Positions 10,845 to 63,710 of a stretch of DNA of 64,000 nucleotides are shown here, in pieces; positions within the stretch are counted from its first letter, which is position 1, and each line of letters starts with the position of its first letter. Source of the stretch: Octopus vulgaris. Its lineage: Eukaryota. A model generated the notes under the pieces. That model did not search any database. It was not told the origin of the DNA and was given only the letters and a program-made list of their open reading frames with translations. A program made the position numbers and the translations under genes. The stretch lies in contig OX597816.1 in the NCBI GenBank assembly GCA_951406725.2, forward strand, positions 20,708,001-20,772,000. The letters run 5' to 3'.

Positions 10845-11452
10845 GGCGCAGAAGTGGCTGTGTAACATGTAGCTTGCTTACGAACTACATGGTTCCAGGT
10901 TCAGTCCCACTGTGTGGCACCTTGGATAAGTGTCTACTACTATAGCCTCGGGCCGACCAAAGCCTTGTGAGTGGATCAGGTAGAGGGAAACTGAAAGAAG
11001 CCTGTTGTATATATGTGTATATGTGACCGCACGTGTACCATTGGCGATTTTCTTTCTCCGTCTTCTCTTCCTTGAACCTTTCCTTTTTCTGTGTTTCTGA
11101 CAAAGAGCTCCGCTCGAAACGTTAAATCTTCCCTCTTTCTTTCCTTTCCTGAGCATCCAATAACACTATACTTGTTCCATGTCCTTGCGTTGTGTTTTCT
11201 CTTTGTTCATGTTGGGATTAACTATGTATGTGTGTATGTGTATCTGTGTTTGTCCCCCCCCCCCCAACATCGCTTGACAACCAATGCTTGTGTGTTTACG
11301 TCCCCGTAACTTAGCAGTTTGGCAAAAGAGACCAATAGAATAAGTACTAGGCTTACAAAGAATAAGTCCTGGAGTCGTTTTGCTCGACTAAAGGCGGTGC
11401 TCCAGCATGGCCACAGTCAAATGACTGAAACAAGTAAAAGAGTAAAAGAGTA
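10845..11452 (+). mobile_element. SINE A carrying a nested Penelope-like H1 pLTR remnant (11022-11224; hammerhead-like motif 11093-11127)
   Basis: SINE A head and tail intact. The H1 sequence sits inside the central TA/TG microsatellite. Confidence 0.85.
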
Positions 11453-62644: not shown

Positions 62645-62699
<55 letters not shown>

Positions 62700-63035
62700 T
62701 ACCAGCGTTGCTTTACTGGCACTTGTGCTGGTGGCACGTGGAAAAACATTCGACCAAGGTCGTTTCCAGTACCGCTGGACTGGTTATTGTGCAGGTGGCA
62801 TGTAAAAAACACCATTTGAGTGTGGCTGTTGCCAGTACCGCCTGACTGGTCCTCATGCCTGTGGCACATAAAAGCACCCACTACAATCTCGGAGTGGTTG
62901 GCATTAGGAAGGGCATCCAGCTGTAGATCTGCCAGATCAAGATTGGAGCCTGGGGCAGCCATCTGGTTCGCCAGTCCTCAGTCAAATCATCCAATCCATG
63001 CTAGCATGGAAAGTAGACGTTAAATGACAATGATG

Positions 63036-63036
<1 letters not shown>
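62700..63036 (+). mobile_element. RTE 3'UTR fragment
   Basis: Family match. Confidence 0.85.
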
Positions 63037-63069
<33 letters not shown>

Positions 63070-63077
<8 letters not shown>

Positions 63078-63510
63078 GAAAAAAGTCAAGATAGAAAATG
63101 CTAAAATAATTTTATAAAAACATTTCAGTACCGGTTTCAGTCATTGAGACTTTTTCAACTGTAACAATTTAATAATTAAATTTAGAAAAATTTGTTTTTT
63201 TAAAAGAATATTTGTATAGTATTCAAATACAAGGGGCATTTTCCTTTTTTTTCTGCCTGTCTCTGCCTGCCTTCTGACAGAGACAGGCAGAAACAAGGAA
63301 AATGTCACTTGTATTTGAACACTATAAAAATATTCTTTTAAAAAAACTTTTCTTTTAATTTTTCTAAATTTAATTATTTAATTGTTTCAGTTGAAAAGTC
63401 TCAATGACTGAAACCGGTACTGAAATGTTTTTTATAAAATTATTTTAACATTTTCTATCTTGACTTTTTTTCCATATATATCAACTCGTGTGTTCCTTTT
63501 CATTCTTATA
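63070..63510. mobile_element. ~400-bp foldback (inverted Penelope-like pLTR pair) with a U3-A8 hammerhead motif in each arm
   Basis: Arms ~63070-63265 and ~63278-63479. Plus-strand motif 63385-63425: UUUCAG-UUGAAAA-GUC-UCAAU-GACU-GAAAC-CG-GUA-CUGAAA. Confidence 0.75.
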
Positions 63511-63518
63511 CATATATA

Positions 63519-63710
63519 AGCACAAAAAAACACAACAACGCGAGGACGTGGAACAAATATAGTATTATTGGACGCTCAAGAAAGAAGGAAAGAAGGTGGG
63601 TTTAACGTTTCGAGCGGAGCTCTTCGTCAGAAACATAGGAGAAGGAAAGATCCAGAGAAGGGAAGACAGAGGGAAAAAATCGCCAACGGTACACACGAGG
63701 TCACATTTTG

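What the first reader, a model, noticed from the sequence alone, without database searches (positions are those of the whole stretch)
63070..63479. Foldback element with paired hammerheads bearing a compensatory U3-A8 core: candidate undescribed ribozyme-bearing retroelement class
Seen: a ~400-bp hairpin with one motif per arm, so either strand's transcript has one sense copy. Plus motif 63385-63425 has a 6-bp stem I UUUCAG/CUGAAA, core UUGAAAA, stem II (A)GUC/GACU, and GAAAC-CG-GUA with palindromic ACCGGU. The minus motif at ~63123-63164 has the same core. Known: C3-G8 is a Watson-Crick pair in active hammerheads, U3-A8 swaps retain activity, and minimal PLE hammerheads cleave as dimers. Inference: a double compensatory change in both arms, also seen in an unrelated family at 14.6 kb, suggests selection for catalysis rather than decay. 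Standard CUGANGA searches would miss these. Full foldback pairing would sequester the ribozyme, a possible co-transcriptional switch.
Basis: partly seen in the sequence, partly recalled or inferred. Interest (0 to 1): 0.8.

Follow-up and report, generated by a model that had tools for sequence, protein, structure and literature searches.

The report
Penelope retroelement end with swapped hammerhead
This hairpin is two short, back-to-back copies of the end of a common Penelope-like jumping gene, and the self-cutting RNA motif it carries has a base-pair swap already described for such elements, so it is a new example of a known thing and likely inert at this spot.

Summary
The hairpin (63076-63473) and the U3-A8 hammerhead-shaped motif are real, but they are not a new class. 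Each arm is the 5'-truncated 3' end (pLTR) of an autonomous Penelope-like element of about 4.3-4.4 kb with RT, a zinc linker and GIY-YIG. The arm follows the endonuclease in 26 of 30 loci, and one full-length copy carries the same foldback at its 5' end. Foldbacks have 18 of 18 different junctions, so the palindrome does not spread as a unit. U3-A8 is fixed in the family (3,797 exact copies against 2 C3-G8), so it is not decay. The two arms are copies of one motif, not two independent swaps. U3-A8 cores and opposite-strand hammerhead pairs in PLEs were published in 2014 (PMC4209133); inverted copies and tails are standard (PMC8557442). The + arm motif has lost one A. The antisense arm is always transcribed first, which argues against a switch. 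Cleavage is untested. A G3-C8 family of 6,746 copies turned up in passing. Earlier notes of this scan report such swapped cores elsewhere in this genome.

The parts
63076..63268 (-). Inverted, 5'-truncated copy of the Penelope-like element's 3' end (pLTR), about 200 nt; no tail
   Evidence: 5' end about 203 nt from the unit end
63123..63164 (-). Intact minimal type-I hammerhead motif: CAG / UUGAAAA / AGUC-UCAAU-GACU / GAAAC CG GUA / CUG; U3-A8 core, A-U at 10.1-11.1; predicted cut between 63129 and 63128
   Evidence: matches the subfamily consensus
63269..63275 (.). 7-nt filler at the head-to-head junction of the two truncated copies
63276..63473 (+). Direct, 5'-truncated copy of the same pLTR end; 95-97% identical to single arms elsewhere
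63385..63425 (+). Degenerate copy of the motif: one A lost from the core/stem II run, private A-to-T in stem I
   Evidence: missed by the strict descriptor
63474..63515 (+). PLE 'tail': short TA run plus about 35 nt that follow the 5' pLTR in full-length elements, just upstream of the ORF1 start; on one arm only
63039..63075 (.). (TA)n microsatellite flank, likely the target site
   Evidence: the same kind of flank at most copies
63527..63708 (-). Neighbouring separate repeat with a canonical C3-G8 minimal hammerhead (core start 63630); not part of the foldback

Best explanation
The hairpin consists of two 5'-truncated copies of the 3' end of an endonuclease-bearing Penelope-like retrotransposon joined head to head in a (TA)n repeat, likely made in a single insertion event, and its U3-A8 motif is that family's pLTR hammerhead, predicted to cut weakly and only with help (dimer or element protein) in the parent RNA and likely inert here. 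Shown: identity of the arm with the pLTR of a 4.3-4.4-kb element (ORF1, RT, CX4CXXC linker, GIY-YIG); fixed 3' end, variable 5' ends, tail on one arm, unique junctions; U3-A8 fixed in all four subfamilies. Inferred: the endonuclease cuts (TA)n; reverse transcription starts at the unit end for one arm and at the tail end for the other (by analogy to PMC11167929); both cDNAs stop early and are joined. Inferred: the ribozyme matters, if at all, in the tandem pLTR-ORF-pLTR transcript. In a read-through transcript of this locus the antisense arm is made first and would pair with the sense motif as it emerges.
For: Single arms have a fixed 3' end and extend 5' to different lengths into a shared sequence. 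One extends to a GIY-YIG domain (PF01541, 24.1 bits, cut-off 22.6). 26 of 30 top endonuclease loci (25 of 29 without the query's own) have the arm downstream in sense. 20 of 20 fetched long-ORF loci do too; 5 have direct copies 4.3-4.4 kb apart; 10 have an inverted arm upstream of or facing away from the ORF; L081 has the 400-bp foldback on a full-length element. RVT_1 passes its cut-off in 2 of 2 full ORFs. Among the first 100 of 3,797 motif hits, all 14 neighbour pairs under 10 kb are minus-then-plus, spaced 118-3,688 bp. 18 of 18 junctions differ. 22 of 26 inverted pairs have the tail on exactly one arm, 3 on none, 1 on both. Stem II position 10.1-11.1 pairs in 92 of 95 parsed arms (of 108): A-U 41, G-C 39, G-U 12. 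Other families in the genome keep other Watson-Crick 3-8 pairs. Literature: PMC4209133, PMC8557442, PMC11167929, PMC3088659.
Against: No cleavage or RNA end was shown. Invariance of the core across the four subfamilies is not special, because the flank 3' of it is about as invariant. The stem II covariation is one lineage event. 5' ends of truncated copies do not clearly pile up at the predicted cut (read by hand: 6 of 35 loci at the cut, 3 of them unambiguous, against 5 at a TA-microhomology site six bases further on). At least 2 of 26 inverted pairs (L003, L006) have arms from different subfamilies, which a strict single-template event does not explain. GIY-YIG scores 21.1 and 22.4 bits in the two full ORFs, just under Pfam's 22.6. 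Neptune versus Nematis was not resolved.
Confidence: 0.9

Rival explanations
1. New class of palindromic, ribozyme-bearing retroelement that moves as a 400-bp unit and uses the foldback as a co-transcriptional switch.
For: 18 places among the 40 scored candidates match the whole palindrome; the full foldback is predicted to pair the motif completely (-233.6 kcal/mol).
Against: The query selects for palindromes of this size. 18 of 18 junctions differ, spacings are continuous, the arm is a PLE pLTR, and the antisense arm precedes the sense motif on both strands.
Confidence: 0.02
2. Same PLE origin, but the U3-A8 motif no longer cuts in this family and is kept as a protein-binding, splicing or priming signal, or simply hitchhikes.
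For: PLE hammerheads cut poorly in vitro (PMC4209133). In the anole PAc element, hammerhead mutants did not affect insertion in vitro and no reads ended at the cut (PMC11167929). Flanks are as conserved as the core. No clear excess of 5' ends at the cut.
Against: The 3-8 positions stay Watson-Crick paired across separate families (C-G, U-A, G-C). Stem II is kept through A-U, G-U and G-C. Young, nearly intact elements carry the full motif.
Confidence: 0.3
3. The two arms come from two separate RNA molecules or two successive insertions (a second copy landing at the 5' end of the first) rather than from one template.
For: L003 and L006 have arms from different subfamilies. The PAc protein cuts and extends both strands and is predicted to be a dimer (PMC11167929).
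Against: Most pairs have arms among each other's nearest relatives, and young ones are 0-1.3% apart. The tail sits on one arm in 22 of 26 pairs, which fits one coordinated event better than two independent insertions.
Confidence: 0.3
4. MITE or foldback DNA transposon with terminal inverted repeats and a TA target duplication; the motif is chance.
For: Inverted arms between TA runs.
Against: Single arms with variable 5' truncation, linkage to RT and GIY-YIG, a tail, and descriptor control 0.
Confidence: 0.01

Closest known systems
Minimal hammerheads of metazoan PLE pLTRs, including the U3-A8 variant of Schistosoma mansoni Cercyon elements (Cervera and De la Pena 2014, PMC4209133; parts 1-2 of 4 read, figures and supplements not seen)
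   Same: Type-I topology, short stem I, palindromic vestigial stem III, location in pLTRs, U3-A8 covariation (about 1,300 hits there), dual motifs 100-700 bp apart on opposite strands, mostly truncated copies.
   Different: Different host and family. Here U3-A8 is fixed in a large family with young, nearly intact members. Stem II is 4 bp with a 2-nt loop III insert, and this window's subfamily has A-U, not G-C, at 10.1-11.1.
Neptune/Nematis-type EN+ Penelope-like elements (as defined in Craig et al. 2021, PMC8557442; introduction and passages read)
   Same: RT with C-terminal GIY-YIG and CCHH, CX2-5CxxC linker, pLTRs, 5' truncation, inverted 5'-truncated copy, 30-40-bp tail at one end, (TA)n bias, hammerhead near the 3' end.
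   Different: No RT tree was built, so the clade is not resolved. ORF1 is separated from RT-EN by a conserved -1 frame overlap (their Fig. 1 legend allows this for some PLE types; figure not seen).
PAc (Poseidon, Anolis) in vitro system (Frangieh et al. 2024, PMC11167929; parts 1-2 of 4 read)
   Same: The tail lies between two RT start sites; AT-rich targets; protein-assisted hammerhead; 3-8 double mutant partly rescues.
   Different: Poseidon clade with a C3-G8 core and the hammerhead overlapping the ORF start; here the motif ends about 135 nt before the ORF1 ATG.
Natural U3-A8 hammerheads (Perreault et al. 2011, PMC3088659; passages read)
   Same: U3-A8 covariation seen in nature and described there as already proven active in vitro.
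   Different: The passages I read do not tie those examples to PLEs.
Animal non-LTR retrozymes (bioRxiv 10.64898/2026.07.22.740005; passages read)
   Same: Hammerhead-bearing and PLE-related.
   Different: Those are tandem direct non-coding monomers; this is an inverted pair cut from an autonomous element's end.

Membership tests
EN+ Penelope-like element (Neptune/Nematis type) | RT domain in the parent element, with DKG motif | tested here: met
   RVT_1 33.6 and 34.1 bits (cut-off 29.6); ADKGS and YLDD visible in the translation
EN+ Penelope-like element (Neptune/Nematis type) | C-terminal GIY-YIG with two cysteines between GIY and YIG (CCHH) | tested here: met
   24.1 bits, above cut-off; 21.1 and 22.4, just under; LIYSLTCSGCQEQYIG plus two His
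EN+ Penelope-like element (Neptune/Nematis type) | CX2-5CxxC linker between RT and EN | tested here: met
   CGRPNCGIC in all six long ORFs printed
EN+ Penelope-like element (Neptune/Nematis type) | pLTR direct repeats, 5' truncation, inverted 5'-truncated copy | tested here: met
EN+ Penelope-like element (Neptune/Nematis type) | 30-40-bp tail at one end; (TA)n target bias | tested here: met
   (tail after 40 of 108 arms; on one arm only in 22 of 26 inverted pairs)
EN+ Penelope-like element (Neptune/Nematis type) | RT phylogeny placing it in Neptune rather than Nematis | not tested
   no reference RT set was fetched
EN+ Penelope-like element (Neptune/Nematis type) | Spliceosomal intron (optional) | tested here: inconclusive
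   no joints in 4 contig sets over 1 kb; runs only guessed to be RNA, and a donor could lie outside the stretch
Minimal type-I PLE hammerhead | 13 core positions with a Watson-Crick 3-8 pair | tested here: met
   met for the family and the - arm (UUGAAAA in 88 of 95 parsed arms); the + arm lacks one A
Minimal type-I PLE hammerhead | Stem II closed by 10.1-11.1, usually G-C | tested here: inconclusive
   paired in 92 of 95; G-C in the youngest subfamily but A-U in this window's
Minimal type-I PLE hammerhead | Palindromic stem III allowing a dimer; NUH cut site | tested here: met
   ACCGGU and GUA in the sequence; cofold pairs two young copies through this region (prediction only)
Minimal type-I PLE hammerhead | Self-cleavage | not testable with these tools
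   no assay; genomic 5'-end proxy inconclusive
Rfam hammerhead families | Match to a curated hammerhead model | tested here: not met
   none among 117 matches at E<=1 (the canonical-core neighbour at 63630 is missed too)
MITE / foldback DNA transposon | Palindrome copied as a unit with a shared interior | tested here: not met
Non-LTR retrozyme | Tandem direct non-coding monomers, each with a hammerhead | tested here: not met
   arms are inverted and derive from a coding element

The most novel reading that the evidence does not exclude
These foldbacks are footprints of double-ended, two-template priming: a PLE protein dimer primes both ends of a cut (TA)n site on separate RNAs, one at the unit end and one at the tail end, and joins the cDNAs head to head, which is why some pairs mix subfamilies. 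In the same genome, PLE hammerheads form a natural 3-8 swap series under selection for assisted cleavage (C-G, U-A in a recently active autonomous family, and G-C in a 6,746-copy family that I did not find in print).
Probability: 0.3. Interest if true: 0.5.

Novelty: new member of a known kind. Interest (0 to 1): 0.2.

Why it matters
As filed, it matters little: it is the standard inverted insertion of a Penelope-like element with a published core variant. Its use is practical. It leads to a young, nearly intact autonomous family with a U3-A8 hammerhead, which can test whether non-canonical cores cut with the element's own protein. It shows that CUGANGA-only searches and Rfam miss thousands of motifs in this genome. 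The thousands of inverted pairs allow a direct count of one-template versus two-template insertions, a step of PLE transposition that is still open (PMC8557442, PMC11167929).

Tried and rejected
Rfam scan of the window: no hammerhead family, only repeat-driven miRNA-like hits. RNA evidence: no RNA holder listed on record; contigs of 4 runs guessed to be RNA cover the young element's pLTR/ORF1 junction with no joints and no end pile-ups; contigs cannot show ends, so this counts neither way. Cut-site footprint in 5'-truncated copies: 35 distinct loci read by hand, 6 at the cut (3 unambiguous), 3 one base after, 5 at a TA-microhomology position; inconclusive. C3-G8 revertants in the family: 2 seen against 0.48 expected from the singles, P about 0.085; not a subfamily. 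The 19 C3-G8 hits in the flanks of the G3-C8 family first looked like within-family covariation, but all 19 belong to other, more diverged repeat families; of 11 U3-A8 hits in those flanks 8 were viewed, 2 being G3-C8-family copies and 6 other families. Monomer folding predicts stems I and II only, as expected for a minimal motif. A bacterial promoter scan was irrelevant. Lunse et al. 2017 (dimer cleavage of PLE hammerhead variants) is not held; I saw only its reference and a review's summary, so it and the unseen supplements of PMC4209133 may already list G3-C8 or mollusc examples. Searches for print: 'hammerhead'+'U3-A8' 1 paper, 'hammerhead'+'G3-C8' 1 paper, an engineered variant, C3G/G8C 2 papers, hammerhead/octopus/Penelope.

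Full report
Observation. The window is G000:C3:20708001-20772000 in a 2.8-Gb genome of 227 contigs; the host is probably an octopus (my inference from size and repeats). An inverted repeat runs from 63076 to 63473 between (TA)n tracts, with arms 93% alike by column. Each arm holds a hammerhead-shaped motif: core at 63391 on + and at 63158 on -. The - copy reads CAG UUGAAAA AGUC UCAAU GACU GAAAC CG GUA CUG, as the family does.

What the arm is. A DNA search of the own genome scored 40 of 3,297 candidates and returned whole palindromes and single 200-bp arms 95-97% identical to the right arm. I fetched 19 of the single-arm places. They share a fixed 3' end at a TA run and extend 5' to different lengths into common sequence. 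In L045 that sequence reaches a GIY-YIG domain. Searching with this domain gave 17,740 candidates, 150 scored. Of the 30 loci returned, 26 carry the arm downstream in sense. I then fetched 20 of the 150, chosen for long ORFs or paired hits. All 20 have the arm 3' of the ORF, five have a second direct copy 4.3-4.4 kb upstream, and ten have an inverted copy at varying distance; L081 has a foldback of the window's size on the 5' end of a full-length element. The long ORF has RVT_1, DKG, YLDD, a CGRPNCGIC linker and GIY-YIG with cysteines between GIY and YIG. By the criteria of PMC8557442 (introduction and passages read) this is an EN+ Penelope-like element of Neptune/Nematis type; I built no tree.

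Tail and target. The 42 nt right of the window's hairpin (63474-63515) are the bases that follow the 5' pLTR in full-length copies, just before ORF1. They follow 40 of 108 arms, and exactly one arm in 22 of 26 inverted pairs. PMC8557442 describes both the inverted 5'-truncated copy and the 30-40-bp tail at one end. PMC11167929 (parts 1-2 of 4 read) maps the tail between two RT start sites.

The palindrome is not a unit. In the first 100 of 3,797 motif hits, the 14 neighbour pairs under 10 kb are all minus-then-plus, 118 to 3,688 bp apart. All 18 foldbacks examined have different pairs of 5' breakpoints, with 0-15 nt of filler or 1-3 nt of overlap in 17 of them.

The core. Exact counts in the family's flanks: U3-A8 3,797, C3-A8 36, U3-G8 51, C3-G8 2, reversed-pattern controls 0. 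It is one inherited state, so both arms having it adds nothing. Better evidence for selection is indirect. Position 10.1-11.1 pairs in 92 of 95 parsed arms as A-U (41), G-U (12) or G-C (39), with G-C in the least diverged subfamily (2.1% from consensus against 3.2%, 3.9% and 7.0%; sampling favours young full-length copies). Separate families keep Watson-Crick 3-8 pairs: U-A in the 14.6-kb family (CUA UUGAAAA G GUUGC..GCAAC GAAAAUUU UAG) and in L046/L100, C-G at 63630, and G-C in L079. Against: the flank 3' of the motif is about as conserved as the core, and 3 C3-A8 hits, 1 A3-A8 and 1 U3-C8 also pass the descriptor.

Prior art. PMC4209133 (parts 1-2 of 4 read) reports U3-A8 in Cercyon PLE hammerheads, about 1,300 hits in S. 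mansoni, and dual minimal hammerheads 100-700 bp apart on opposite strands, attributed to truncated PLEs; activity in vitro was low and needed dimers. PMC3088659 (passages) reports natural U3-A8. So the two features that made the finding look new are both in print.

How it most likely works. Parent: a tandem pLTR-ORF-pLTR transcript carries the motif about 55 nt before the unit end. It is predicted to cut weakly as a dimer through ACCGGU or with the element's protein, by analogy with PAc, where cutting needed protein and was dispensable for insertion in vitro. Insertion (inferred): cut in (TA)n, cDNA synthesis from the unit end and from the tail end, early stops, head-to-head joining. This copy: a dead-end fragment about 3% from its subfamily consensus per arm. 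Any read-through RNA makes the antisense arm first, and the whole hairpin is predicted to pair the motif, so a ribozyme switch is unlikely. A long double-stranded RNA would sooner be a substrate for editing or small-RNA pathways (inference, untested).

Tests that gave nothing. No RNA holder is on record; contigs of four runs show no joints. 5' ends of truncated copies show no clear excess at the cut (6 of 35 loci, read by hand).

Leads. At least two inverted pairs (L003, L006) join arms of different subfamilies, which points to two templates in some events; nesting or conversion are alternatives. A short repeat family with UUUGUCA GUGAACA G GUCGC..GCGAC GAAAAUAUUU UGACAAA has a G3-C8 core in 6,746 exact copies (control 1; 261 C3-C8 plus G3-G8 singles by subtraction) and the same foldback-plus-tail anatomy. 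My searches found G3-C8 only as an engineered variant, but Lunse et al. 2017 and several supplements were not available. Earlier notes of this scan (e1-9541059, e1-9593535) report this family and swapped cores on other pieces of the genome; I found it before reading them.

Verdict. Real feature, known kind: a new family member of EN+ Penelope-like elements with a published hammerhead core variant in a standard inverted insertion. Interest 0.2.

Noticed in passing
L079:341-390; L133-L144 (G000, 6,746 exact pattern hits): Short (TA)n-flanked repeat with a G3-C8 minimal hammerhead, 7-bp stem I, 5-bp stem II, foldbacks and a roughly 60-nt tail on one arm. Not found in print as a natural variant in my searches; no parent ORF was sought.
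   Followed up: partly
window:14583-14748 and onward to about 14795: Foldback of a second family with a U3-A8 minimal hammerhead (unpaired G, 5-bp stem II, AAAUUU palindrome, cut after UUU). In 28 copies viewed the inversion point lies just 5' of or within the core, but the query selects for that.
   Followed up: partly
window:63527-63708 (-) and 11030-11205 (+): Two copies of a repeat with a canonical-type minimal hammerhead (C3-G8 at 63630, C3-A8 at 11097). The same repeat sits right behind this family's end in L078, L081 and L094 too, probably through shared (TA)n targeting.
   Followed up: partly
L081-L086, ORF1/ORF2 overlap: In 6 of 6 copies where the site was found (8 looked at), a 411-aa ORF1 (intact in L081) overlaps the RT-EN ORF in the -1 frame at a U UUU UUA heptamer, with no stable structure predicted downstream: a candidate programmed frameshift.
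   Followed up: partly
window:63385-63390 and family consensus: The 5' strand of stem I ends in UUACAG after a long U-rich tract, like a 3' splice site; in D. virilis Penelope the intron ends at helix I (PMC4209133). No splice joint was seen.
   Followed up: partly
L003, L006: Inverted pairs whose two arms belong to different subfamilies.
   Followed up: partly
L046:713(-), L100:2402(+), L065, L067, L033: Further unrelated families with U3-A8 hammerhead-like motifs (GGGG/CCCC stem II; a U-rich stem II type).
   Followed up: no
L153-L171: 19 diverged repeats with GUCA CUGAAGA G GUCGC, canonical-core relatives in architecture of the G3-C8 family but with different flanks.
   Followed up: partly
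window:61680-61959 and 62699-63037: Two copies of an abundant SINE-like repeat ending in (GAT)n, 85-95% alike over their matching parts.
   Followed up: no
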